DNA of 64,000 nucleotides from Gemmatimonadetes bacterium 13_1_20CM_4_69_16. GTDB lineage: Bacteria > Gemmatimonadota > Gemmatimonadetes > Gemmatimonadales > GWC2-71-9. Each line of letters opens with the position of its first letter. The stretch's first letter is position 1. Below the pieces are notes generated by a model. That model was not told the DNA's origin. It did no database searches and was given only the letters and a program-made list of their open reading frames with translations. The translations under genes and the position numbers were made by a program. Shown in pieces: positions 37,188 through 47,979 of this stretch. The stretch is taken from contig MNIR01000051.1 of assembly GCA_001919865.1 (NCBI GenBank), positions 11,933 through 75,932 on the forward strand, given 5' to 3'.

Positions 37188-38092
37188 GCCGGGCGGCGCG
37201 GGCGGCCGAGGTCGCTGCCGCGGCGCAGCTCGCCTGCCTGCTGGAGGCGAGCGCTCCCAAGCCCGGCAACGTGTCCCCCGGCGCCGCTTTCCGCGACGCG
37301 ACCTACGAGGACTTCTTGGCGAGCGCCGTGGCGATCGGCCCCGCGCTCGCCGCGGCGGGCCAGCAGCCGCTCGGCGCCACGATCCGCGCCGCCGTGGAGG
37401 CCACCGCCCGGTGGGCCCCGTCCAATACCAACCTCGGCCTGGTGCTGCTGCTCGCCCCCCTCGCCCGAGCCGCCTTGCGGCCGGGGGGGACGGAGGGGAA
37501 GAGGGGGGGCGCGCCGCTGCGGTCCGGCCTCGCCGCCACGCTCGCCGAGACCACAGTGGCCGACGCGGCTGAGGCCTACGCCGCGATCCGCCGCGCCGCG
37601 CCGGGCGGCCTCGGCCACACGTCCGAGCAGGACGTGACCGGGACACCGACGGTGACGTTGCGCGCGGCGATGGCGCTGGCGGCCGGGCGGGACGCGATTG
37701 CCCGCGAGTACGCGACCGACTTCGAGACCACCTTCGATGCTGGCGTGCCGGCGCTGCGCCGGGCGCTCGCGGCGGGGCTTGCCTGGCGCGACGCCGTAGT
37801 CGAGACCTACCTCACACTTCTGGCCGCCTGGCCGGACACGCACATCGCCCGTAAGGTTGGCCCTGAGCACGCGGTCCACGTGCAGCGACGGGCGCGGGCC
37901 GTGCTCGACGCGGGAGGGGTGCGCACTGCCGCCGGTCGCGAGACGATCGGCGCGCTCGACCGCGAGCTGCGGGACGAGCGCAATACGAGCAACCCGGGGG
38001 CCACGGCCGATCTCACGGGCGCCGCGATCTGCGTCGTCTTGTTGGAGGGCGGCTGGCGGCGGGGAGAACAGGAAGCCGATGGCCGGGCGTAA
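37184..38092 (+). CDS. Triphosphoribosyl-dephospho-CoA synthase (CitG/MdcB)-like protein
   Basis: GTGA overlap. CitG signature region LLEASAPKPGNVSPG...DATYEDFLASA and NTNLGLVLLLAPL. Confidence 0.7.
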   Translation: MSRAARAAEVAAAAQLACLLEASAPKPGNVSPGAAFRDATYEDFLASAVAIGPALAAAGQQPLGATIRAAVEATARWAPSNTNLGLVLLLAPLARAALRPGGTEGKRGGAPLRSGLAATLAETTVADAAEAYAAIRRAAPGGLGHTSEQDVTGTPTVTLRAAMALAAGRDAIAREYATDFETTFDAGVPALRRALAAGLAWRDAVVETYLTLLAAWPDTHIARKVGPEHAVHVQRRARAVLDAGGVRTAAGRETIGALDRELRDERNTSNPGATADLTGAAICVVLLEGGWRRGEQEADGRA

Positions 38093-38582
38093 GCAGTTCA
38101 AGGTGGCGGTGAGCAAGGACAACCACGTCTTCGCGTCCGCGCACTTCATCACCTTCCCGGGGCACCGCTGCGAGACGCTGCACGGCCACAACTACCGCAC
38201 GCAGGTCGTGGTCGAAGGGGGGCTCGATCCCGAAGCGCACTACGTGGTGGACTTCTCGGAGCTGAAGCAGCTGATGAAGCGGCTCACCGACGAGCTCGAC
38301 CACAAGGTGCTGCTGCCGATGCAGAACCCGAAGCTGCAGGTGGGAGAAGAAGGGGAGACCGTGACGGTCGCGGTCAACGGCAAGCCCCGCTACGTCTTTC
38401 CCAAGATCGATTGCGCACTGCTGCCGATCCCGAACACGACGGTCGAGATGCTGGCGCAGTACCTCGCGGGGCGCGTGTGCCGCGAGCTCACGACGGCGCC
38501 CGGCGTGGACCTGATGGCGATCGAGGTCGAGGTGGAGGAGAACTTCGGCCAGTCCGCCACTTACCGCGAGGCGCTCGGGTGA
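38079..38582 (+). CDS. 6-pyruvoyl-tetrahydropterin synthase (PTPS/QueD)-family protein
   Basis: FKVAVSKDNHVFASAHFITFPGHRCETLHGHNYRTQVVVEG...VVDFSELK is the PTPS fold signature (C...HGHxY). Confidence 0.75.
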   Translation: MAGRKQFKVAVSKDNHVFASAHFITFPGHRCETLHGHNYRTQVVVEGGLDPEAHYVVDFSELKQLMKRLTDELDHKVLLPMQNPKLQVGEEGETVTVAVNGKPRYVFPKIDCALLPIPNTTVEMLAQYLAGRVCRELTTAPGVDLMAIEVEVEENFGQSATYREALG

Positions 38583-39369: not shown

Positions 39370-40401
39370 ATGAAGGGCGTGTTCGGCTGGGACATCGGTG
39401 GCGTCAACACGAAAGTGGCCCGTGCGACGGGCACCCGCGTCGCCGCCACGCGGGTGGTGCCGTACGAGATTCAGCGCGATCCCGCCGCGCTCGCGCCGCT
39501 GCTCGACCGTCTCGCGCGGGAGCTCGGCGCGCAACCCGGCGACGCCCACGCGGTGACCATGACCGCCGAGCTGTCGCAGCTGTTTCGCACCAAGCGCGAG
39601 GGTGTGGCGTTCGTCCTCGAGGCCGTGACGCAGGCCTTTCCGGACGGACTGGTGCGCGTGTACGCGGTCGACGGGCGCTGGCGCACCCCGGACGAGGCGC
39701 GCCGCGACCCGCTCGCCGTGGCGGCCGCCAACTGGGCCGCGACGGCGCGCCTCGTGGCCCGCAGCTTCCCCGATTGCATCCTGATCGACGTGGGCTCCAC
39801 CACCACCGACATCATTCCGGTCGTGGAGGGCGCGCCCGCGGCGATCGGTCGCACCGATCCCGAGCGGCTGTGCGAGGGCGAGCTGATCTACACGGGAGCC
39901 TTGCGCACGCCGGCGGAGGCTATCGCATCCAGCGTTCCGTTCCGGGGACGGCCCAGCGGCGTGTCGGCGGAAGCGTTCGCGCTCGCGGGCGATGTTCACC
40001 TCTGGCGGGGTCAGCTCACGCCTGCGGAGTACTCGGTCCCCACGCCGGACGGGCGCCCCGCCACGCGAGCGTTGGCGGGGGAGCGGCTCGCCCGGGTCGT
40101 GTGCGCCGATCGCGAAATGCTCGATGACGCAGCGATCGGCGCGATCGCCGACGCGCTGTGCGACGCGCAGGTTACCCGCATCGCCGAGGCGGTCACCCGC
40201 GTGTGCCGGCGCCACGCCGCGCTCGCCCTCGCCGTGGTCACCGGCCTCGGTGACTTCCTGGCTCGAGAGGCGGCCCGCCGCGCCGCATTGACGGTCACCC
40301 ATCTCTCGACCTCGCTCGGCCCGGCCGCCCGCCACGCGCCGGCGGCGGCGGTGGCGCTGCTGCTCGCCGGGGAGCTCGCCCGAGAAACGGTGCCCTCATG
40401 A
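39370..40401 (+). CDS. Hydantoinase-A-like 'H4MPT-linked C1 transfer pathway protein' (MfnF-like)
   Basis: FGWDIGGVNTKVA...VTMTAELSQLF...LIDVGSTTTDIIPV matches the pattern of the methylotroph/archaeal family, which I recall as TIGR03123 / MJ0840. Confidence 0.7.
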   Translation: MKGVFGWDIGGVNTKVARATGTRVAATRVVPYEIQRDPAALAPLLDRLARELGAQPGDAHAVTMTAELSQLFRTKREGVAFVLEAVTQAFPDGLVRVYAVDGRWRTPDEARRDPLAVAAANWAATARLVARSFPDCILIDVGSTTTDIIPVVEGAPAAIGRTDPERLCEGELIYTGALRTPAEAIASSVPFRGRPSGVSAEAFALAGDVHLWRGQLTPAEYSVPTPDGRPATRALAGERLARVVCADREMLDDAAIGAIADALCDAQVTRIAEAVTRVCRRHAALALAVVTGLGDFLAREAARRAALTVTHLSTSLGPAARHAPAAAVALLLAGELARETVPS

Positions 40402-41015
40402 CGGACGAGACCCGGGTCGTACACACGGTCGTGAAGGTCGGGGGAGGACTGCTCAGCAGGGCCGGGGCGCTCGATCTCGTCGTCGAGGCGCTGACGGCGT
40501 TCAGCCCGCGGCGCCGCATCGTGATCATCCCCGGCGGCGGACCGTTCGCCGAGGCGGTGCGCACCATGTTCCGGCGGGTGAAGATCGGCGAGGACGCAGC
40601 GCACTGGATGGCCGTGCTCGGCATGGATCAGTACGCCCACGCCCTGGCGTCTCGCCTCCCGGGCGCCGTGCTCGTCGAGCAGCAGTCGGAGGTCGGCGCC
40701 GCGCGCGTGGCCGGGCGGCTCCCCGTACTCGCACCGTACCGCTGGCTCCGGGCGGCCGACCCCCTTCCGCACAGCTGGGAAATCACCAGCGACAGTATCG
40801 CGGCCTGGCTCGCCGGCGCGCTCGGCGCCCGGCGTGTCGTCCTGATCAAACCTGCGGGCGGCGACCCCCGGAAGCTCGTGGACCCCTTCTTCCTGCGGAC
40901 CCTGCCGCCCGGAGTGGAGCACTTCATCATCACCGCGGATGACCTGGGGCAGCTGGACGTGGCGCTAGACGAGGGTGGCGGCAGCGGCCAGGGGCGCCGC
41001 GCGCGCCAGGGCTGA
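40398..41015 (+). CDS. Amino-acid-kinase-family protein (MfnE-like)
   Basis: ATGA overlap. VVKVGGGLL...VIIPGGGPFAEAVR...SDSIAAWLA is the aspartate/glutamate/uridylate kinase fold. It pairs with the preceding gene as in other C1 islands. Confidence 0.65.
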   Translation: MTDETRVVHTVVKVGGGLLSRAGALDLVVEALTAFSPRRRIVIIPGGGPFAEAVRTMFRRVKIGEDAAHWMAVLGMDQYAHALASRLPGAVLVEQQSEVGAARVAGRLPVLAPYRWLRAADPLPHSWEITSDSIAAWLAGALGARRVVLIKPAGGDPRKLVDPFFLRTLPPGVEHFIITADDLGQLDVALDEGGGSGQGRRARQG

Positions 41016-41696
41016 CAGCTCGGCAACGCGGGCGCGCGAGATCCGACCGCTCCGCCCGCCGACGCACGCGGCTCCCCGAACGCCGACGAGGTCGGCTCCG
41101 AGCGCGCGCGCCGCGGCAAAGTCCGGTCCGCCGAGGCTGCCCGCGAGGCACGCGAACAGGCCGGCGTCGTGCGCTGCCGCGATCCACGCACCGACCGTCC
41201 GGGTGTCGAGCAGGGCGAACAGGCCGGCCGGCTTGAACGCCGTGTCGAGCAGCACCCCCGCCGCGTCGGTGTCGGCCGCCAGCGCGACGAGCGGCTCGGG
41301 AGCGAGGCTGTGCGCGCGCGCCCAGTCGGCGTATGCGACCAGCACCACCCGCGTGCCCTCCCCTTCCCTCTCCCCCGCCCCCCGGCGTGCTGCCTCCGCT
41401 CGGCGGCGCGCCTGCGACACGGTGGGGGCAGCGCGGAACCCCACCTTTACGAATGCCGCTCCGCGCCGCGCGGCCGCGCGGGCGCGCCGCTCGATCAGCG
41501 TCGGGGGCCCTTCGTCCCCGAGCGCCGCGCTCACAGGGCGGCCCGCCCCGACCGCGGTGCAGATAGTGCCCAGCACCACCTGTCGCACGGCACCCAAGGC
41601 GCCCTGGCGCGGGTCCTTCGCGTCGATCACGTCCGCGCCGCCGAGCAGCGCGGCATGCGCTTCAGAGGCATCGGCGACGCTGACGAGAAGCTGCAT
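40965..41696 (-). CDS. mfnB: (5-formylfuran-3-yl)methyl phosphate synthase (methanofuran biosynthesis)
   Basis: MQLLVSVADASEAHAALLGGADVIDAKDPRQGALGA...FVKVGF is the MfnB (DUF556) N-terminal signature. Confidence 0.75.
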   Translation of the reverse strand: MQLLVSVADASEAHAALLGGADVIDAKDPRQGALGAVRQVVLGTICTAVGAGRPVSAALGDEGPPTLIERRARAAARRGAAFVKVGFRAAPTVSQARRRAEAARRGAGEREGEGTRVVLVAYADWARAHSLAPEPLVALAADTDAAGVLLDTAFKPAGLFALLDTRTVGAWIAAAHDAGLFACLAGSLGGPDFAAARALGADLVGVRGAACVGGRSGRISRARVAELSALARAAPLAAAATLV

Positions 41697-41756
41697 GACG
41701 CGCGCTCCCTTGTGGGTGTCGCAAAGTCGCCGATAGGTTAGGCTTCCGGAGACCCG

Positions 41757-42584
41757 ATGTCAAAACGACAACTGGAGGGAGCGGTGGAAACGGCGCCGCC
41801 TGGCGCGGCGTTCGACGCCGCTGAACCGACTCTCATCGGAAAAGTGGTGCTCGTCACCGGCGCCTCGAGCGGCATCGGCCGCGCGATCGCGGTTGCCTGC
41901 GCGGCCGCCGGGGCCGATGTAGCCCTGACCTACCGCGCGAACCGCACGGGGGCCGACGAGACCGCCCAGCGCGTCCGCTCGCAGGGCCGCCGCGCCGAGC
42001 TGCTGCCGGTGGACCTGACCGAGACGCGGGACCTCGAGGCTCTGGCCGCCCTCGTACGCGGGGCCCTCGGCCGGGTGGACGTATGGGTGAACAACGCCGG
42101 CGCCGACATCCTGACGGGAGCAGCGGCCCGGCTCAGCTGGGTCGAGAAGCTGGACCGACTGCTCGCCGTGGACTTACGCGGGACGGTGCTCGCCTCCTGG
42201 AAGGCGGTCGAACTGATGCGGGCCCAGCCGCCCGGCGGCGTGATCCTGAACCTGGCGTGGGACCACGTGCTCACGGGGGGGATGAAGGGCGGGTACGCCG
42301 AGGTGTTCTGCGCCGCCAAAGGCGGGGTGTACTCGTTCAGCCGCGCGCTCGCTCACTCGGTGGCGCCCCACATCCGCGTGAACGTGCTCGGGCCCGGTTG
42401 GATCGAGACGGCCTACGGGGACGAGCTCGATCCCACGGTGAAGCAGCGCATCGCGCGGTCGATCCCGCTCGAGCGCTGGGGCACGCCCGAGGACATCGCG
42501 CACGCAGCCGTGTACCTCGCCTCCGACGCCGCGTCCTACGTCACCGGGCAAATGTTGATGATCAACGGCGGGGCCGTCATCTAA
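41757..42584 (+). CDS. Short-chain dehydrogenase/reductase with an atypical catalytic region
   Basis: TGASSGIGRAI and NNAG motifs are present. Where S...YxxxK is expected, the sequence reads LNLAWDHV...GGYAEVFCAAKGG. Confidence 0.75.
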   Translation: MSKRQLEGAVETAPPGAAFDAAEPTLIGKVVLVTGASSGIGRAIAVACAAAGADVALTYRANRTGADETAQRVRSQGRRAELLPVDLTETRDLEALAALVRGALGRVDVWVNNAGADILTGAAARLSWVEKLDRLLAVDLRGTVLASWKAVELMRAQPPGGVILNLAWDHVLTGGMKGGYAEVFCAAKGGVYSFSRALAHSVAPHIRVNVLGPGWIETAYGDELDPTVKQRIARSIPLERWGTPEDIAHAAVYLASDAASYVTGQMLMINGGAVI

Positions 42585-42605
42585 GGCCCCGATAAGGAGA
42601 CTCGT

Positions 42606-42965
42606 ATGGCGCAGAAAGACCCGACCTACAACGAGACCCAGATCGCGCAAAAGCTGCAGGACCTCCCGGGATGGTGGTACGAAGACGGCTGGATCCGCCG
42701 CAACTACAAGACGGACGGTTGGCCCACCACGCTGATGCTCGTGAACGCCATCGGCTACATCGCCGAAGCCGCGTACCACCACCCCGATCTCGCCGTCACG
42801 TGGGGTCGAGTGATCGTGAAGCTCCAGAACCACGCGGCCGGCGGAATCACGGACAAAGACTTCGAGCTAGCGAAGCAGCTCGAGGAGTCGGTGCTGTGGC
42901 GGCCGAAGGGCGGCGCGCTCGAGGGGACGCCGAACAAGTTCGTGCGGTCGGGCGACCCGCGGTGA
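42606..42965 (+). CDS. Pterin-4a-carbinolamine dehydratase
   Basis: 119 aa. LPGWWYEDGWIRRNYKTDGWPTTLMLVNAIGYIAEAAYHHPDLAVTWGRVIVKLQNH is the PCD signature (HHPD). Confidence 0.85.
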   Translation: MAQKDPTYNETQIAQKLQDLPGWWYEDGWIRRNYKTDGWPTTLMLVNAIGYIAEAAYHHPDLAVTWGRVIVKLQNHAAGGITDKDFELAKQLEESVLWRPKGGALEGTPNKFVRSGDPR

Positions 42966-44401
42966 CGTCCGCTCCGGCGGACGCCGGACCCCAGCGGGTG
43001 CTGTTCGTGACCGGAAAGCTCGCCGAGCCGGCGCTGCGCCGGACGCTCACCGACATGGCGCCGGCATTCGCCCACGAGGTGGCCGTCATGAAGATCACCG
43101 TGGCCGCCTTGATGACCACGCCGTGGATCGCGCGCTTCCTCGACGTGCCGGCGGGCACGGATCTCGTCCTGATCCCCGGCCTGTGCGAGGGCGACGTCGC
43201 CGTCATCGCGGAGAAGGTCGGAACCCGCGTGGAGAAGGGGCCCAAGGACTTGCGCCAGATCCCCGAGTATTTCGGCCGCGCGGCGGCGACTCGTGCGTAC
43301 GGGGCGTCCGACATCGAAATCGTCGCCGAGGTGAACAACGCCCCCCGGTTGGCACGTGAGGCGCTGCGGCGTGAGGCCGAGCACTACCGCGCCAGCGGCG
43401 CCGACATCATCGACGTCGGCTGCACACCGGGCCGCGAGTTTCCCGAGCTCGCGGGCGTGGTGCGCGAGCTGGTGGGCGGGGGGATGCGAGTGAGCATCGA
43501 CTCGTTTGACCCGAGCGAGATTCGCACCGCCGTGGCGGCCGGTGCCGAGCTCGTCCTCTCCGTCAACCGGTCGAACCTCGACGTGGCGCGTGACTTCGCG
43601 CGCACCAAGACGCGCGTCGTCGTGATCCCCGATTTCGGGCAGGGCATCGAGACCCTCGAGCCGAGCGTGGAGGCGCTCGAGCAGTGGGGGGTGTCGTACC
43701 TGATCGACCCCGTCGTCGAGCCGATCGGGTTCGGCTTCTTCGCCTCGCTGGAGCGCTTCGCCGCGGTGCGCCGCCGTCACCCCGCCGCGGCCCTGTTCAT
43801 GGGCATCGGGAACATCACCGAGCTCACCGCCGCCGACACGACGGGAGTGAACGCCCTCCTGATCGCCATCTGTCAGGAGCTGGGCGTGCGGGCAGTCCTC
43901 ACCACCGAGGTGATCCCCTGGGCCCGCGGCGTGGTGCGCGAAGTGGACCTCGCGCGCCGTCTCATGTACCACGCCGTCACCCAGAAGACGCTTCCCAAGG
44001 GCGTGGACGACCGGCTCGTCACGCTCAAGGATCCCACGATCCTGGCCTACGGCGAAGCCGAGCTGCGCGAGCTGCAGGCGCGCGTGACCGATCCCAACTT
44101 CCGCATCTTCGCCGACCGCGAGGTGATCACCGTTTTCAACCACGAGATCTTCCTGCGCGGAACGGATATCCACGAGATCTTCGCCGGGCTCGGCGTGGAC
44201 CAGGCGAGCCACGCCTTTTACCTCGGCCGTGAGCTCATGAAAGCAAAGCTCGCCCTCACGCTGGGCAAGAACTACCGCCAGGAGGGGGCGCTGCAGTGGG
44301 GCTACCTCACGCCCCCGGACGACCGCGGCCCCGAGCACGTAAAGCTCACGCAGCGGTCCACACGATCCCGCGAGCGCCGCAACGCAAAGGGCGGCACGTG
44401 A
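42962..44401 (+). CDS. Dihydropteroate-synthase-like protein (H4MPT pterin-arylamine condensing enzyme type) with an N-terminal extra domain
   Basis: GTGA overlap. Pterin-binding barrel text (ADIIDVGCTPG...MRVSIDSFDP...LVLSVN...FMGIGNITELT) preceded by about 110 aa (RVLFVTGKLAEPALR...). Confidence 0.7.
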   Translation: MTSAPADAGPQRVLFVTGKLAEPALRRTLTDMAPAFAHEVAVMKITVAALMTTPWIARFLDVPAGTDLVLIPGLCEGDVAVIAEKVGTRVEKGPKDLRQIPEYFGRAAATRAYGASDIEIVAEVNNAPRLAREALRREAEHYRASGADIIDVGCTPGREFPELAGVVRELVGGGMRVSIDSFDPSEIRTAVAAGAELVLSVNRSNLDVARDFARTKTRVVVIPDFGQGIETLEPSVEALEQWGVSYLIDPVVEPIGFGFFASLERFAAVRRRHPAAALFMGIGNITELTAADTTGVNALLIAICQELGVRAVLTTEVIPWARGVVREVDLARRLMYHAVTQKTLPKGVDDRLVTLKDPTILAYGEAELRELQARVTDPNFRIFADREVITVFNHEIFLRGTDIHEIFAGLGVDQASHAFYLGRELMKAKLALTLGKNYRQEGALQWGYLTPPDDRGPEHVKLTQRSTRSRERRNAKGGT

Positions 44402-45882
44402 CCGACCCCGCGCCCGTCGCCGAACAGCTCATTCCCGCCCCCGACTCGGTGGACGTGTGCGCGCGGTTCGCGGACCTGCCGTACGTGGTGTTTCTCGACA
44501 GCGCCACACAGGCCGGGCAGGTCGGCCGGTACTCCTTCCTCGTCGCCGATCCCGCGACGGTCGTGCGTTCCAAGGGCGTCCTCACGCAACAGCTCGACGG
44601 CACGGGCTGGACCCGCGTCGCCGCCGATCCGCTCACCCATGTCCGCACCCTGCTAGCGCCGTTCGCGTGTGAGCCGCTCGCCGATATCCCGCCGTTCCAA
44701 GGCGGGGCGGCGGGCTACGTGGGCTACGATTGGGGGGCGCAGCTCGAGCGCATCCCTCACCCGCGGTACGACGATCTCGCGATTCCCGACGTGATGCTCG
44801 GCGTGTACGACTGGGTCATCGCGTGGGATCACGCCGCCGGGAGCGCCTGGGTGATCTCAACGGGCATCCCTGAGCAGGGCGCGGCGCGCAACCGGCGGGC
44901 GGTGAGCCGACTGGCGTTCGTGAAGCAGCGGCTCGCGGGTGGGCGGCCCAGCGACCAGGGCGCCTGGGGCCTCCCCGAACGACTGCGCAGCTTTGTCGCG
45001 CAGGGAGACCCCCGGCGTCCGGACCGTCACACCGCTCCCTCCTACCCCGTCCCCGACGTGCCCGGGCTGCGCTCGAACTTCACTCGTGCCGGCTACCTCG
45101 ACGCGGTTGCGCGGGTCATCGAGTACGTCCACGCCGGCGACATCTTTCAGGCGAATCTCTCGCAGCGACTCGAGGCGCCGCTCGCAGGGCCGCCGTTCGA
45201 GCTGTACCGCCGGCTGCGGCTGCGCAATCCCGCGCCCTTCGCCGCCTACCTCGATTTCGGCGAGTTCGTCGTCGCGAGCTCTTCGCCCGAGCGCTTCCTG
45301 CACGTCGACTGCGACCGCCGCGTCGAGACGCGCCCGATCAAGGGGACCCGACCGCGCGGCGTCGGTCCGGAGCACGACGCGGCGCTCGCGTTGGCGCTCG
45401 CCGAAAGCGACAAGGACAGGGCCGAGAACGTGATGATCGTGGACCTGCTACGGAACGACCTCTCACGCGTGTGTCGGGTGGGCAGCGTGGGCGTGCCCGA
45501 GTTGTTCGCGCTCGAGCACTACCAAACGGTGCACCACCTCGTCTCCACCGTGGTGGGCGAGCTCGCCCCGGAGCACGATGCGCTGGACCTGGTGCGCGCG
45601 GCGTTCCCCGGCGGGTCCATCACCGGCGCGCCCAAAGTGCGGGCGATGCAGATCATCGCCGAGCTCGAGCCGACCCGGCGCGCCGTGTACTGCGGCTCCA
45701 TCGGCTATTGGAGCGTCACCGGGGCGCTCGATACGAGCATCGTGATTCGGACCTATCTGGTGCTCGGGGGCGACGTGTACTTTCAGGCCGGCGGCGGCAT
45801 CGTAGCCGATTCCGACCCCGAGCAGGAGTACCGTGAGACCCTCGATAAGGCCCGCGGCCTGATCGCCGCCCTGGCGCCATGA
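44398..45882 (+). CDS. pabB: Aminodeoxychorismate synthase component I
   Basis: GTGA overlap. Chorismate-binding enzyme motifs (SSPERFL, IKGTRPRG, MIVDLLRNDL, FPGGSITGAPK, GGGIVADSDPEQEY). Confidence 0.85.
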   Translation: MTDPAPVAEQLIPAPDSVDVCARFADLPYVVFLDSATQAGQVGRYSFLVADPATVVRSKGVLTQQLDGTGWTRVAADPLTHVRTLLAPFACEPLADIPPFQGGAAGYVGYDWGAQLERIPHPRYDDLAIPDVMLGVYDWVIAWDHAAGSAWVISTGIPEQGAARNRRAVSRLAFVKQRLAGGRPSDQGAWGLPERLRSFVAQGDPRRPDRHTAPSYPVPDVPGLRSNFTRAGYLDAVARVIEYVHAGDIFQANLSQRLEAPLAGPPFELYRRLRLRNPAPFAAYLDFGEFVVASSSPERFLHVDCDRRVETRPIKGTRPRGVGPEHDAALALALAESDKDRAENVMIVDLLRNDLSRVCRVGSVGVPELFALEHYQTVHHLVSTVVGELAPEHDALDLVRAAFPGGSITGAPKVRAMQIIAELEPTRRAVYCGSIGYWSVTGALDTSIVIRTYLVLGGDVYFQAGGGIVADSDPEQEYRETLDKARGLIAALAP

Positions 45883-46541
45883 TCCTGCTGATCGACAACT
45901 ACGACTCCTTCGTCTACAACCTGGCGCGGTACGTGCGCGAGCTGGGGGAGGAGACCGTGGTCCGACGCCACGACACCACGACGCCCGAGGAAATCGAGGC
46001 GCTCCGACCCTCCCATATCATCATCTCGCCCGGACCGTGCTCGCCCGGCGAGGCCGGTATTTCGACCGAGGTAGTGCGCCGCTTCGGCCCGGCGACCCCC
46101 ATCCTCGGGGTCTGCCTCGGCCACCAGTGCATCGGCGCCGCCTACGGCGCCGCGATCGTACGGGCGGCGCGGCCGGTCCACGGCAAGGCATCGCGCATTC
46201 ATCACGACGGCCGCGGCATCTTCACCGGCCTGCCGACCCCGTTCCAGGCCGCCCGCTATCACTCCCTCGTCGTCGCCCGGACGGGCCTGCCTGCGGAGCT
46301 GCGCGTCACGGCCACGGCCGAAGACGGCGAGATCATGGCGATCGAGCACCGCCAGCACCGCGTGATCGGCCTCCAGTTTCACCCGGAATCGGTGCTCACC
46401 GAGCACGGCTACGCCCTGCTCGACCGGTTCCTCCACCCGGACACGACCCGGGCGGAGACCCTCCCCGACCGCGCCGACGGCGCGCGCGCACGGCCTCGGA
46501 CGCCGGGCTTCGTCCCGCCGCCTGCGGCGTTGGTCCGGTGA
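45879..46541 (+). CDS. pabA: Aminodeoxychorismate/anthranilate synthase component II (glutamine amidotransferase)
   Basis: ATGA overlap. MILLIDNYDSFVYNL, ISPGPCSP, GVCLGHQ and QFHPES motifs. Confidence 0.88.
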   Translation: MILLIDNYDSFVYNLARYVRELGEETVVRRHDTTTPEEIEALRPSHIIISPGPCSPGEAGISTEVVRRFGPATPILGVCLGHQCIGAAYGAAIVRAARPVHGKASRIHHDGRGIFTGLPTPFQAARYHSLVVARTGLPAELRVTATAEDGEIMAIEHRQHRVIGLQFHPESVLTEHGYALLDRFLHPDTTRAETLPDRADGARARPRTPGFVPPPAALVR

Positions 46542-47113
46542 TCATCGAATCGATCCTCACCACGCTCGACGCCCTCGGGACGGCCAACTTCGCCCCTATG
46601 GGCGTCGAGTGGGGCGAGCGAGAGATCGTCATCAAGCCGTTCGTCGAAACCACCACGTTCCACAACCTGCGTGACACCGGGGCGGCGGTGGTGAACCTGA
46701 CCGACGACGTCATGCTGTTCGCGCGCGGCGCGATCTCGACCGCTCGATTTCCCACGCTCCCCGCGGCGGTGGTGCCGGGCGTCGTGCTCGAAGCCGCCTG
46801 CTCGTGGAGGGAAGTCGAGGTCCGGTCGCTCGACGCCACGCCACCACGGGCGCGCATCGTGACGGCCGTGGCGCACCAGGGGTTCCGGCGTGAATTTCTC
46901 GGCTTCAACCGGGCGCGGCACGCCGTGCTCGAGGCGGCGATCCTCGCGACCCGCACGCACCTCCTGCCGGCCGGGCAGATCCGCGACGAGTTCGCGCGGC
47001 TGCAGGTGATCGTGGACAAGACGGCCGGTCCCCGGGAGCGCGAGGCGATGGCGCTGCTCACCGAGTACGTGCGCACCGCGCCCGCAGGGCGGCCCGAGCC
47101 CGCGCCGCGATGA
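46538..47113 (+). CDS. DUF447-family protein (FMN-binding split-barrel-like)
   Basis: GTGA overlap. IIESILTTLDALGTANFAPMGVEW...TTFHNLRDTGAAVVNLTDD resembles the DUF447 proteins of H4MPT islands. Confidence 0.6.
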   Translation: MIIESILTTLDALGTANFAPMGVEWGEREIVIKPFVETTTFHNLRDTGAAVVNLTDDVMLFARGAISTARFPTLPAAVVPGVVLEAACSWREVEVRSLDATPPRARIVTAVAHQGFRREFLGFNRARHAVLEAAILATRTHLLPAGQIRDEFARLQVIVDKTAGPREREAMALLTEYVRTAPAGRPEPAPR

Positions 47114-47979
47114 GCGGAGCGCCCCCCCCGCCCCGCCCGCCCCCCCCCGCCCCAGAGCTTCGGGCCGAAGGCCCCGACGCGACCCGGGCGCTCGAGTTCG
47201 CGCGGCGTTTCGCCTCCCATCACGGCATCGACGCTCGCCTCCACTTCTGCCTGCACCGGACCATCCCGGCGCATGCGGGTCTGGGTTCGGGTACCCAGCT
47301 CGCCCTCGCGGTGGCGGGCGCCATGGCCGAGCTGTACGGGCTGCCCCAGGAAGTGACGGCGCTGGCCCGGGCCGTGGACCGGGGACGACGCTCGGCGGTG
47401 GGCACCTGGACGTTCGCGTTGGGCGGGTTCGTGCTCGAGGGCGGCCGGAGGACGAGCGACGACGGGCCCGCGCCCCTGCTCACTCGCCTGCCGATCCCGG
47501 CGGCCTGGCGCTGTGTGGTAGTCGTCCCCGACGGGAAGTCCGGGCTCTCCGGAGACGAGGAGGCGGCCGCGTTCGCGCGCCTGCCGCCACCCGACCGCCG
47601 CGAGGTCGAGCGGGTCGCGCACCTCGTGTTGATGCAACTACTCCCGGCCGTCGCCGTAGCCGACCTCACAGCCTTCGGGGCGGCGCTGACCGAGGTGCAG
47701 CGCATCACCGGCGGGTGGTTCGCGCCGGCTCAGGGCGGCGTGTTCGCGCCGGGCGAAACGGGGGGCCTGGTCGAGCGACTGCGAGAGGGAGGGGCGATGG
47801 GAGTGGGGCAGAGCTCCTGGGGTCCGGCCGTGTACGGGATTGTGGCAGGCGCGGCCGCCGCGCACGCGCTCGCCGAGCGGGTGCGGGGGACGCTCGGGCC
47901 TGGCGGCGCCGTGTATGAGGGCCCCTTCAGCGCCCGCGGGGCGCGGGTGTGGCGCGGTGAAACCCTCGTTTCAGCCTGA
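47110..47979 (+). CDS. mptG: Beta-ribofuranosylaminobenzene 5'-phosphate synthase, N-terminally short
   Basis: ATGA overlap. GHMP-kinase-type motif IPAHAGLGSGTQLALAVA plus GVGQSSWGPAVYG. The first 17 codons are Pro-rich and encoded by C8 and C9 homopolymers. Confidence 0.75.
   Translation: MSGAPPPPRPPPPAPELRAEGPDATRALEFARRFASHHGIDARLHFCLHRTIPAHAGLGSGTQLALAVAGAMAELYGLPQEVTALARAVDRGRRSAVGTWTFALGGFVLEGGRRTSDDGPAPLLTRLPIPAAWRCVVVVPDGKSGLSGDEEAAAFARLPPPDRREVERVAHLVLMQLLPAVAVADLTAFGAALTEVQRITGGWFAPAQGGVFAPGETGGLVERLREGGAMGVGQSSWGPAVYGIVAGAAAAHALAERVRGTLGPGGAVYEGPFSARGARVWRGETLVSA

What the first reader, a model, noticed from the sequence alone, without database searches (positions are those of the whole stretch)
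41757..42965. Atypical SDR plus pterin-4a-carbinolamine dehydratase inside the H4MPT biosynthesis operon: candidate non-orthologous pterin reductase
I see nothing in the island resembling the known dihydromethanopterin reductases (DmrA, AfpA-like DmrB, Fe-S DmrX). An SDR gene lies 21 nt upstream of a PCD gene, and the PCD gene is GTGA-coupled to the DHPS-like gene.

The SDR keeps the TGxxxGxG and NNAG motifs. The expected Ser...YxxxK region instead reads LNLAWDHV...GGYAEVFCAAKGG. By eye, Phe sits where the catalytic Tyr normally aligns (FCAAK), an Asp lies near the Ser position, and a Tyr lies 4 residues upstream. Pteridine reductases (PTR1/FolM type) are SDRs that use Asp in place of Ser.

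The SDR, or alternatively the FMN-barrel-like DUF447 protein at 46538-47113, could supply the missing H2MPT-to-H4MPT reduction. PCD would recycle a 4a-carbinolamine pterin.
Basis: inference. Interest (0 to 1): 0.6.

Follow-up and report, generated by a model that had tools for sequence, protein, structure and literature searches.

The report
Tyrosine-less reductase tied to methanopterin synthesis
An unusual short-chain reductase that lacks the family's catalytic serine and tyrosine, plus a pterin dehydratase, head the operon that builds the one-carbon coenzyme tetrahydromethanopterin in this soil Gemmatimonadales genome; the reductase sits where other bacteria keep their dihydromethanopterin reductase, so it is a strong but untested candidate for a missing version of that enzyme.

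Summary
At 41757-42584 lies an SDR in which three of the four classical catalytic residues are replaced: Asn to D139, Ser to W168 and Tyr to F184. Only K188 is kept. A canonical pterin-4a-carbinolamine dehydratase (PCD) follows 21 nt downstream and overlaps the DHPS-like mptH gene by GTGA.

The SDR belongs to a distinct, widespread subfamily. The order SDR-PCD-MptH recurs in Gemmatimonadota, Acidobacteriota, Actinomycetota and Planctomycetota.
- In 201 Gemmatimonadota, 41 of 43 SDR carriers also carry mptG.
- In 300 Gammaproteobacteria-class genomes, 11 of 12 do.
- Other subfamily members are fused to HPPK, or follow a genuine folP in a genome with no FolA and no H4MPT genes.

No DmrA-, DmrB- or DmrX-type gene was found in this genome (85% complete), nor a DmrB/X type in 49 other carriers. 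Where DmrB exists, it lies directly upstream of mptH, in the SDR's slot.

Best reading (about 0.55): a NADPH-dependent dihydromethanopterin (dihydropterin) reductase, with PCD repairing oxidised coenzyme. Nothing has been assayed.
- It is not a PTR1/FolM member, because it lacks the TGX3RXG motif.
- About 15 of 35 H4MPT-positive Gammaproteobacteria have no recognisable reductase of any type, so complementarity is incomplete.

This scan has already flagged and followed up the same pair on other genomes.

The parts
41757..42584 (+). Atypical SDR (275 aa, P0001). It has TGASSGIG, NNAG followed by an A116-D117 insertion, D139, W168-D169, F184-x3-K188, PGW215 and RW241G. Candidate NADPH-dependent dihydromethanopterin/dihydropterin reductase.
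   Evidence: AlphaFold2 model with pLDDT 91. FabG-like fold.
42585..42605 (+). 21-nt spacer between the SDR and PCD genes, with an AAGGAG ribosome-binding site.
   Evidence: Sequence read.
42606..42965 (+). Pterin-4a-carbinolamine dehydratase (119 aa, P0002) with the full activity signature E54-x3-HHP-x5-W-x9-H-x8-D. It is the only PCD found in the genome.
42962..44401 (+). DHPS-like MptH (DUF6513 + Pterin_bind + PterinBD-DUF4346). Its GTG start overlaps the PCD stop (GTGA).
   Evidence: TIGR00284, 204 bits.
44398..45882 (+). PabB (aminodeoxychorismate synthase component I). Its likely GTG start overlaps the mptH stop (GTGA).
   Evidence: The homolog in L004 has the same 4-nt overlap.
45879..46541 (+). 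PabA (glutamine amidotransferase component II).
46538..47113 (+). DUF447 protein, a conserved H4MPT-cluster gene of unknown step.
   Evidence: It lies next to MptH in Gammaproteobacteria-class clusters as well.
47110..47979 (+). MptG (beta-ribofuranosylaminobenzene 5'-phosphate synthase).
   Evidence: TIGR00144, 129 bits against a cut-off of 113.5.
40965..41696 (-). MfnB-like 4-HFC-P synthase, transcribed divergently from the SDR. A 60-nt intergenic region (41697-41756) separates them.
   Evidence: No sigma-70 consensus was found there.
37857..38582 (+). PTPS/QueD-like gene of the island (the true start is probably later). It lies directly upstream of the SDR in Planctomycetota and of dmrB in one Gammaproteobacteria-class genome.

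Best explanation
The SDR is a nicotinamide-dependent reductase of the pterin ring, probably using NADPH. It most likely reduces 7,8-dihydromethanopterin to tetrahydromethanopterin, the last step of H4MPT synthesis and the re-reduction step after oxidation.

It would be a non-orthologous substitute for DmrA, DmrB and DmrX in Gemmatimonadota, Acidobacteriota, Thermoleophilia, Planctomycetota and some Gammaproteobacteria.

Proposed mechanism (inferred):
- The Rossmann fold and K188 hold the cofactor.
- The classical Ser/Tyr acid pair is gone.
- Subfamily-specific carboxylates (D117, D139, D169) and tryptophans (W168, W215, W241) would bind and polarise the pterin. Protonation of N5 would then go through water, as in DHFR and in the second half-reaction of PTR1.

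The PCD next door is an active dehydratase. It would convert 4a-hydroxy-H4MPT, formed when H4MPT meets oxygen, to a dihydro form that the reductase returns to H4MPT.

Shown: gene identities, residue replacements, synteny, phyletic patterns. Inferred: substrate, cofactor preference, mechanism.
For: 1. Synteny. SDR-PCD-MptH order is kept in about 65 genome loci from Gemmatimonadota, Acidobacteriota, Actinomycetota and Planctomycetota. Planctomycetota show RimK-CitG-PTPS-SDR-PCD-MptH-PabB.

2. Phyletic link.
- In 201 Gemmatimonadota, 43 have the SDR, 43 have mptG, and 41 have both (Fisher p about 1e-37, not corrected for kinship).
- In 300 Gammaproteobacteria-class genomes, 12 have the SDR. Eleven of these are among the 35 mptG-positive genomes, although there the SDR lies outside the island (p about 1e-10).
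- Subfamily hits score 300 bits or more; generic SDRs score 193 or less.

3. Slot equivalence. dmrB scores 193 bits to PDB 3WIS 'dihydromethanopterin reductase (AfpA)'. It lies immediately upstream of mptH in 3 of 3 loci examined, and one of these reads PTPS-dmrB-mptH.

4. Known reductases not found.
- This genome has no DHFR_1 and no AfpA/DmrB/DmrX. Its Flavoprotein hits are UbiX and CoaBC.
- 0 of 49 SDR-bearing genomes score above 31 bits with TIGR02699.
- 0 of 36 genomes match a bacterial DmrB profile.
- None of the 5 DmrB-bearing Gammaproteobacteria-class genomes has the SDR.

5. Links to the dihydropterin product of DHPS-type enzymes outside H4MPT.
- Three HPPK-SDR fusion proteins carry the same GWDQ...F...K signature.
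- In an Anaerolineales genome the SDR follows a genuine folP (260 bits) by 5 nt. That genome has no FolA, MptH or MptG.

6. Cofactor-binding features are conserved while N, S and Y are replaced in a fixed pattern across phyla. This argues for an active enzyme with altered chemistry.

7. A missing reductase is a recognised gap. The literature states that the afpA/dmrB gene is not recognised in Planctomycetes and some Proteobacteria (PMC5020050).
Against: - No assay has been done, and no structure with ligand exists.
- Complementarity is incomplete. About 15 of 35 mptG-positive Gammaproteobacteria-class genomes have neither this SDR, nor DmrB, nor an extra DHFR-like gene. Lacking a known Dmr therefore does not by itself point to the SDR.
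- SDR/DmrB exclusivity there (13 against 5, no overlap) is not significant (p = 0.13).
- In Gammaproteobacteria the SDR lies far from the H4MPT genes, beside unrelated-looking genes: GT2, a phosphatase, a phosphorylase-family protein and a radical-SAM-like protein.
- The enzyme lacks the Tyr that all characterised SDR pteridine reductases keep, and it lacks their TGX3RXG motif.
- Its nearest solved structures are FabG-type ketoreductases.
- Adjacency to PCD fits a quinonoid-dihydropterin reductase equally well.
- This genome is only 85% complete.
Confidence: 0.55

Rival explanations
1. The SDR is a quinonoid (6,7-) dihydropterin reductase and the functional partner of PCD. Together they would form the classical two-enzyme recycling pair: PCD dehydrates the 4a-carbinolamine and the SDR reduces the quinonoid product. 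On this reading the pair only repairs or recycles H4MPT, and the biosynthetic 7,8-H2MPT reductase is something else.
For: - The SDR and PCD are adjacent in four phyla, and also in a small contig reading PTPS-x-SDR-PCD.
- Mammalian dihydropteridine reductase is an SDR (established knowledge).
- The PCD keeps its catalytic signature, and the genome has no aromatic amino acid hydroxylase. Its substrate must therefore come from elsewhere.
Against: - PCD orthologs (50-57% identical) close MptH-DUF447-MfnB-PCD clusters in genomes that lack the SDR.
- The SDR occurs without an adjacent PCD, next to mptH, next to folP, and fused to HPPK.
- These biosynthetic contexts, and the positional swap with dmrB, fit a 7,8-dihydro reductase better.
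Confidence: 0.15
2. The SDR catalyses a different reduction in methanopterin synthesis. One option is the unassigned reductive opening of the ribofuranosyl ring of the pterin-RFAP adduct to the ribitol form. Another is reduction of a side-chain carbonyl of the product of the PTPS-like enzyme, in the manner of sepiapterin reductase.
For: - The gene sits between PTPS-like and DHPS-like genes in Planctomycetota.
- PTPS, an SDR and PCD are the enzyme classes of tetrahydrobiopterin synthesis and recycling (established knowledge).
- The ribitol-forming reductase has, to my knowledge, no assigned gene.
Against: - Those steps should be needed by every H4MPT producer. The SDR is absent from 22 of 35 mptG-positive Gammaproteobacteria-class genomes, including all five with DmrB. 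The PTPS-like and DUF447 genes recur beside mptH in those clusters.
- The folP-linked member sits in a genome without H4MPT genes, so it cannot act on RFAP adducts.
Confidence: 0.12
3. The SDR is primarily the cell's dihydrofolate or dihydropteroate reductase, a FolA substitute. It would merely be co-located with the pABA and pterin genes of the island.
For: - No SDR-bearing Gemmatimonadota genome (0 of 43) has a strong FolA hit, against 33 of 158 without the SDR (p about 3e-4, not corrected for kinship).
- Planctomycetota carriers also lack FolA.
- folP-SDR adjacency occurs in a FolA-less Anaerolineales genome.
Against: - 125 of 201 Gemmatimonadota lack both FolA and the SDR, so the phylum has some other route to tetrahydrofolate.
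- Gammaproteobacteria-class carriers nearly all have a normal FolA as well.
- SDR presence tracks mptG, not folate synthesis.
Confidence: 0.1
4. The protein is a catalytically dead or non-pterin SDR, for example a structural subunit or an enzyme of an unrelated substrate, carried along with the island.
For: - Three of the four tetrad residues are replaced.
- The nearest solved relatives are FabG-type ketoreductases.
Against: - The replacements are fixed across at least six phyla, and the cofactor-binding motifs stay intact.
- Association with pterin genes is seen through three independent kinds of link: synteny, fusion and phyletic profile.
Confidence: 0.08

Closest known systems
DmrB (AfpA-type dihydromethanopterin reductase of Burkholderia xenovorans and other Proteobacteria; PDB 3WIS/4MWG)
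   Same: Same proposed reaction. Same genomic slot directly upstream of mptH. Patchy distribution among H4MPT users.
   Different: DmrB is an unrelated fold and uses a different cofactor: it is an FMN flavoprotein of the Flavoprotein/AfpA family, not an SDR. In the genomes examined, DmrB and the SDR do not co-occur.
DmrA (NADPH-dependent dihydromethanopterin reductase of Methylorubrum extorquens AM1, DHFR family)
   Same: Same proposed reaction, and probably the same nicotinamide cofactor, without flavin (PMC6193120).
   Different: DmrA has a DHFR fold and is almost confined to Alphaproteobacteria. The window's genome has no DHFR_1 match at all.
PTR1 (trypanosomatid pteridine reductase) and FolM (bacterial dihydromonapterin/dihydrofolate reductase), SDR family
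   Same: These are SDR-fold, NADPH-dependent reducers of 7,8-dihydropterins. folM-like genes also cluster with pterin genes (PMC1971073).
   Different: PTR1 and FolM are defined by TGX3RXG; here the motif is TGASSGIG. They keep the catalytic Tyr, and PTR1 has Asp at the Ser position. Here the Ser position is W168, Asp follows at +1, and Tyr is Phe. Neither family appears among the best 60 sequence matches or the best 50 fold matches in the PDB.
Dihydropteridine reductase (QDPR/DHPR) with PCD, the tetrahydrobiopterin recycling pair
   Same: An SDR next to a PCD. It would regenerate a tetrahydropterin after oxidation.
   Different: DHPR keeps YxxxK and serves aromatic amino acid hydroxylases. 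No such hydroxylase was found in this genome, and the gene context is biosynthetic.

Membership tests
Classical SDR (Pfam adh_short / adh_short_C2) | Rossmann fold with the TGxxxGxG and NNAG motifs | tested here: met
   adh_short_C2 scores 176 bits and adh_short 127 bits. TGASSGIG and NNAG are present. The model has pLDDT 91, with FabG-type structures as the top fold matches at TM 0.8-0.9.
Classical SDR (Pfam adh_short / adh_short_C2) | Catalytic tetrad Asn-Ser-Tyr-Lys | tested here: not met
   The tetrad positions read D139, W168, F184 and K188 in HMMER alignments to solved SDRs. The same holds in 43 subfamily members against 59 classical sequences: W in 43 of 43, F in 37 and Y in 5, D139 in 40 of 43.
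PTR1/FolM pteridine reductases | TGX3RXG cofactor motif (PMC1971073) | tested here: not met
   The motif here is TGASSGIG. G39 is invariant in the 28-sequence subfamily alignment.
PTR1/FolM pteridine reductases | Asp at the catalytic Ser position together with a retained YxxxK (recalled from PTR1 structural work, not re-read here) | tested here: not met
   W168 occupies the Ser position, D169 is one residue later, and Phe replaces Tyr.
PTR1/FolM pteridine reductases | NADPH-dependent reduction of 7,8-dihydropterins | not testable with these tools
   This needs an enzyme assay.
DmrA (DHFR-type dihydromethanopterin reductase) | DHFR_1 fold (PF00186) | tested here: not met
   The protein has an SDR fold. 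The whole genome has no PF00186 match (85% complete).
DmrB/DmrX (AfpA-type flavoprotein reductases; TIGR02699/TIGR02700) | Flavoprotein (PF02441) fold with FMN | tested here: not met
   The SDR has no such domain. The genome's only PF02441 proteins are UbiX (209 bits) and CoaBC (398 bits). It has no TIGR02699 match and no bacterial DmrB profile match.
Pterin-4a-carbinolamine dehydratase (PF01329 / COG2154), for the second gene | Family model scored above the curated cut-off | tested here: met
   PF01329 scores 87 bits (cut-off 26). NF002017 scores 91 bits (cut-off 80).
Pterin-4a-carbinolamine dehydratase (PF01329 / COG2154), for the second gene | Activity signature [EDKH]-x3-H-[HN]-[PCS]-x5,6-[YWF]-x9-[HW]-x8,15-D (recalled from Naponelli et al. 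2008, not re-read here) | tested here: met
   The regex matches at residue 54: EAAYHHPDLAVTWGRVIVKLQNHAAGGITDKD.
H4MPT biosynthesis gene set (functional association, not homology) | Conserved clustering and co-occurrence with mptG/mptH across lineages | tested here: met
   Synteny holds in four phyla. Co-occurrence with mptG is 41 of 43 in Gemmatimonadota and 11 of 12 in the Gammaproteobacteria class.

The most novel reading that the evidence does not exclude
This SDR subfamily is a fourth, evolutionarily independent class of dihydromethanopterin reductase. It would be flavin-free, NADPH-dependent, and would work without the SDR catalytic Ser/Tyr pair. It would fill the reductase gap long noted for Planctomycetes and extend to Gemmatimonadota, Acidobacteriota and Thermoleophilia. 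Sister members fused to HPPK or linked to folP would serve as dihydrofolate/dihydropteroate reductases in FolA-less bacteria. The accompanying 'partnerless' PCD would be a general repair enzyme for oxidised H4MPT.
Probability: 0.45. Interest if true: 0.75.

Novelty: new variant of a known kind. Interest (0 to 1): 0.65.

Why it matters
The last step of tetrahydromethanopterin synthesis is known to be carried out by unrelated enzymes in different lineages (DmrA, DmrB, DmrX). For Planctomycetes and other bacterial H4MPT users, no enzyme has been recognised (PMC5020050).

This work gives a concrete candidate with a clear sequence signature and a simple test: an assay with H2MPT, or complementation of a dmrA mutant. 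That would close the gap, improve annotation of methylotrophy and formaldehyde-detoxification islands in soil metagenomes, and add an SDR that reduces a C=N bond without the canonical Ser/Tyr pair.

The folP-linked and HPPK-fused relatives may also explain some 'missing DHFR' cases. The PCD link gives a possible job to PCDs that have no hydroxylase partner.

Tried and rejected
- A first attempt to scan genome contigs with the 28-sequence alignment failed because no stretch was conserved enough. A 10-sequence alignment worked.
- Foldseek against the PDB gave only generic FabG, glucose dehydrogenase and naphthol reductase SDRs. Nothing was pterin-specific. The fold therefore does not discriminate function.
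- I looked for the reductase used by the 17 mptG-positive Gammaproteobacteria-class genomes that have neither the SDR nor DmrB.
  - Genes upstream of mptH there are regulators, a genuine folP, PTPS-like genes or unrelated genes.
  - Genes downstream of PCD are a GT2, an HTH protein, a cupin, a CBS protein and similar.
  - Only two have an extra DHFR-like gene.
  - No candidate emerged.
- The contexts of the HPPK-SDR fusions and of two deep-branching representatives lie on short contigs and told me nothing.
- Literature searches for PCD together with methanopterin or H4MPT found nothing relevant.
- I rejected Y180 as a shifted catalytic Tyr, because it is not conserved.
- I rejected DUF447 as the variable reductase, because it accompanies MptH in clusters of every reductase type examined.
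- I did not run a complex prediction for SDR with PCD, because I do not claim that they bind.
Full report
**What is there.**
The window comes from a soil Gemmatimonadales metagenome-assembled genome (2.82 Mb, 87 contigs, 85% complete). The nearest relatives of the gene are named Gemmatimonadetes or Gemmatimonadales.

The finding's coordinates hold two genes at the head of a tightly packed seven-gene operon:
- SDR, 41757-42584
- a 21-nt spacer with AAGGAG
- PCD, 42606-42965
- DHPS-like MptH, from 42962 (GTGA overlap with PCD)
- PabB, from 44398 (GTGA overlap with MptH)
- PabA, DUF447 and MptG, each overlapping the previous gene by 4 nt

An MfnB-like gene diverges upstream. A XoxF-type methanol dehydrogenase follows downstream.

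**The SDR is atypical in a fixed way.**
Pfam calls it an ordinary SDR. No NCBIfam model reaches its cut-off. HMMER alignments to solved FabG-type enzymes put W168 on the catalytic Ser, F184 on the catalytic Tyr and D139 on the tetrad Asn. Only K188 is kept.

A search of 1.8 billion representative proteins showed that this is not a one-off. Among the best 150 hits, 43 share the following features, against 59 classical SDRs that carry N, S and Y at the tetrad positions:
- an Ala-Asp insertion after NNAG (D117)
- D139
- W168-D169
- a two-residue insertion before F184-x3-K188 (Tyr in only 5 of 43)
- PGW215
- RW241G

In a maximum-likelihood tree the classical SDRs form one clade (support 100/99). 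The remainder splits into two groups:
- an 'SWDH...NPxxF' group: Gemmatimonadota, Acidobacteriota, Actinomycetota and Gammaproteobacteria
- a 'GWDQ...SGxLF' group: Planctomycetota, a Chloroflexota member and the HPPK fusions

The AlphaFold2 model is confident (pLDDT 91). Its nearest solved folds are generic FabG-type SDRs.

**Link to methanopterin and pterin genes.**
Of 80 loci recovered from species-representative genomes, about 65 show SDR, then PCD (+0.6 kb), then MptH (+1.5 kb). The rest of the H4MPT/methanofuran set lies around them. This holds in Gemmatimonadota, Acidobacteriota, Actinomycetota (Thermoleophilia) and Planctomycetota, where the order is RimK-CitG-PTPS-SDR-PCD-MptH-PabB. 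One of the five Actinomycetota loci (L074) lies in a genome flagged unpublished. The statement stands without it.

A 41%-identical member sits directly before mptH, next to DUF447, pabA and pabB, in a 4.8-Mb genome. Another sits in PTPS-x-SDR-PCD.

Phyletic patterns agree:
- In a sample of 201 Gemmatimonadota, 43 have the SDR, 43 have mptG and 41 have both.
- In 300 Gammaproteobacteria-class genomes, 35 have mptG and 12 have the SDR. Eleven of those 12 are mptG-positive, although the gene there lies far from the island. One of the eleven (G088) is flagged unpublished. In one search only 8 candidates per genome were scored, so the counts are a floor.

These tests are not corrected for kinship.

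Two further links point to the dihydropterin made by DHPS-type enzymes rather than to H4MPT alone:
- Three proteins fuse HPPK to an SDR with the same signature.
- In an Anaerolineales genome the SDR follows a genuine folP by 5 nt. That genome shows no FolA, MptH or MptG.

**Known reductases.**
This genome has no DHFR_1 match. Its two Flavoprotein-family genes are UbiX and CoaBC. RibD_C occurs only in RibD. It has no match to the AfpA model or to a bacterial DmrB profile.

None of 49 SDR-bearing genomes scores above 31 bits with the AfpA model, whereas genuine bacterial DmrB scores 90-106 bits.

In the five mptG-positive Gammaproteobacteria-class genomes that do have DmrB, the SDR is absent. 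DmrB identity was confirmed by 193 bits to PDB 3WIS. In all three loci fetched, dmrB lies immediately upstream of mptH, once as PTPS-dmrB-mptH. That is the position the SDR (with PCD) holds in the window. This positional swap is the strongest single argument that the SDR does DmrB's job.

**Limits.**
- Seventeen of the 35 mptG-positive Gammaproteobacteria-class genomes have neither the SDR nor DmrB. Only two of those carry an extra DHFR-like gene. At least one more reductase type is therefore still unknown, and 'no known Dmr' is weak evidence on its own.
- The SDR/DmrB exclusion is not significant (p = 0.13).
- Most Gemmatimonadota lack FolA whether or not they have the SDR.
- The enzyme fails the defining TGX3RXG motif of PTR1/FolM (PMC1971073), so the resemblance to those enzymes is functional analogy, not membership.

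**The PCD.**
It passes the family cut-offs and the recalled activity signature. It is the only PCD found in the genome, and no aromatic amino acid hydroxylase was found.

Orthologs 50-57% identical close MptH-DUF447-MfnB-PCD clusters in four Gammaproteobacteria-class genomes that lack the SDR. PCD therefore looks like a general accessory of bacterial H4MPT clusters rather than a dedicated partner of this SDR. I found no paper that connects PCD with methanopterin.

The most economical role is dehydration of 4a-hydroxy-H4MPT formed by reaction with oxygen, feeding a dihydro form back to the reductase. This is inference.

**Verdict.**
- The SDR is a well-founded candidate for a further, non-orthologous dihydromethanopterin (dihydropterin) reductase (about 0.55).
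- Rivals are a quinonoid-dihydropterin reductase (0.15), another reduction in the pathway (0.12), a FolA substitute (0.10), and an inactive or unrelated protein (0.08).

The same gene pair has been flagged repeatedly by this scan on other genomes. Two earlier follow-ups reached similar conclusions.

This report adds the following:
- the folP-linked and HPPK-fused members
- the dmrB/mptH slot comparison
- the quantitative cross-tabulations
- the presence of PCD in clusters without the SDR
- the caveat that many H4MPT users still lack any recognisable reductase

Noticed in passing
L136:4633-5022, L138:794-1132, L141:4801-5145, L144:3430-3816: Full-length PCD orthologs, 50-57% identical to the window's, end MptH-DUF447-MfnB-PCD clusters in Gammaproteobacteria-class genomes that have neither this SDR nor DmrB. 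PCD seems to be a general, undescribed member of bacterial H4MPT clusters.
   Followed up: partly
Genomes G059, G064, G101, G168, G180, G194, G199, G222, G227, G253, G282, G320, G328, G344, G345: About 15 of 35 mptG-positive Gammaproteobacteria-class genomes show no SDR of this subfamily, no DmrB, and only one FolA. At least one more dihydromethanopterin reductase type may remain to be found, or FolA moonlights.
   Followed up: partly
L078:5830-9355: An Anaerolineales genome has folP, then this SDR subfamily (5-nt gap), then a DNA photolyase. It has no FolA, MptH or MptG. This is a possible SDR-type dihydrofolate/dihydropteroate reductase.
   Followed up: partly
Proteins P0181, P0188, P0185 (loci L010-L012): HPPK (FolK) is fused N-terminally to an SDR carrying the GWDQ...F...K signature. 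In the tree these fusions branch next to the Planctomycetota H4MPT-island members. The contigs are too short to show context.
   Followed up: partly
Gemmatimonadota sample of 201 genomes: Only 33 have a strong canonical FolA and 168 do not. The phylum largely lacks a recognisable dihydrofolate reductase.
   Followed up: no
Tree; L023, L044, L062, L063, L065, L072: Acidobacteriota SDR sequences nest inside the Gemmatimonadota clade with the same island order. This suggests transfer of the whole H4MPT island between these soil phyla.
   Followed up: no
L082, L088, L090, L092 (about 5.4-9.9 kb in each locus): In Gammaproteobacteria MAGs the SDR is transcribed divergently from a conserved block: a GT2 glycosyltransferase, a dual-specificity phosphatase-like protein, a PNP_UDP phosphorylase-family protein, an SPL-like radical-SAM protein and a sodium:solute symporter. 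The function of this block is unknown.
   Followed up: partly
G298:C40:23444-23650: A short DHFR-like match (61 bits, covering only the C-terminal half of the model) lies 7 kb from mptG. It could be a DmrA-like gene outside Alphaproteobacteria.
   Followed up: no
window 40965-41015: The convergent amino-acid-kinase-like ORF (40398-41015, +) and the MfnB-like ORF (40965-41696, -) overlap by about 50 nt at their 3' ends, as also called in the homologous locus L004.
   Followed up: no
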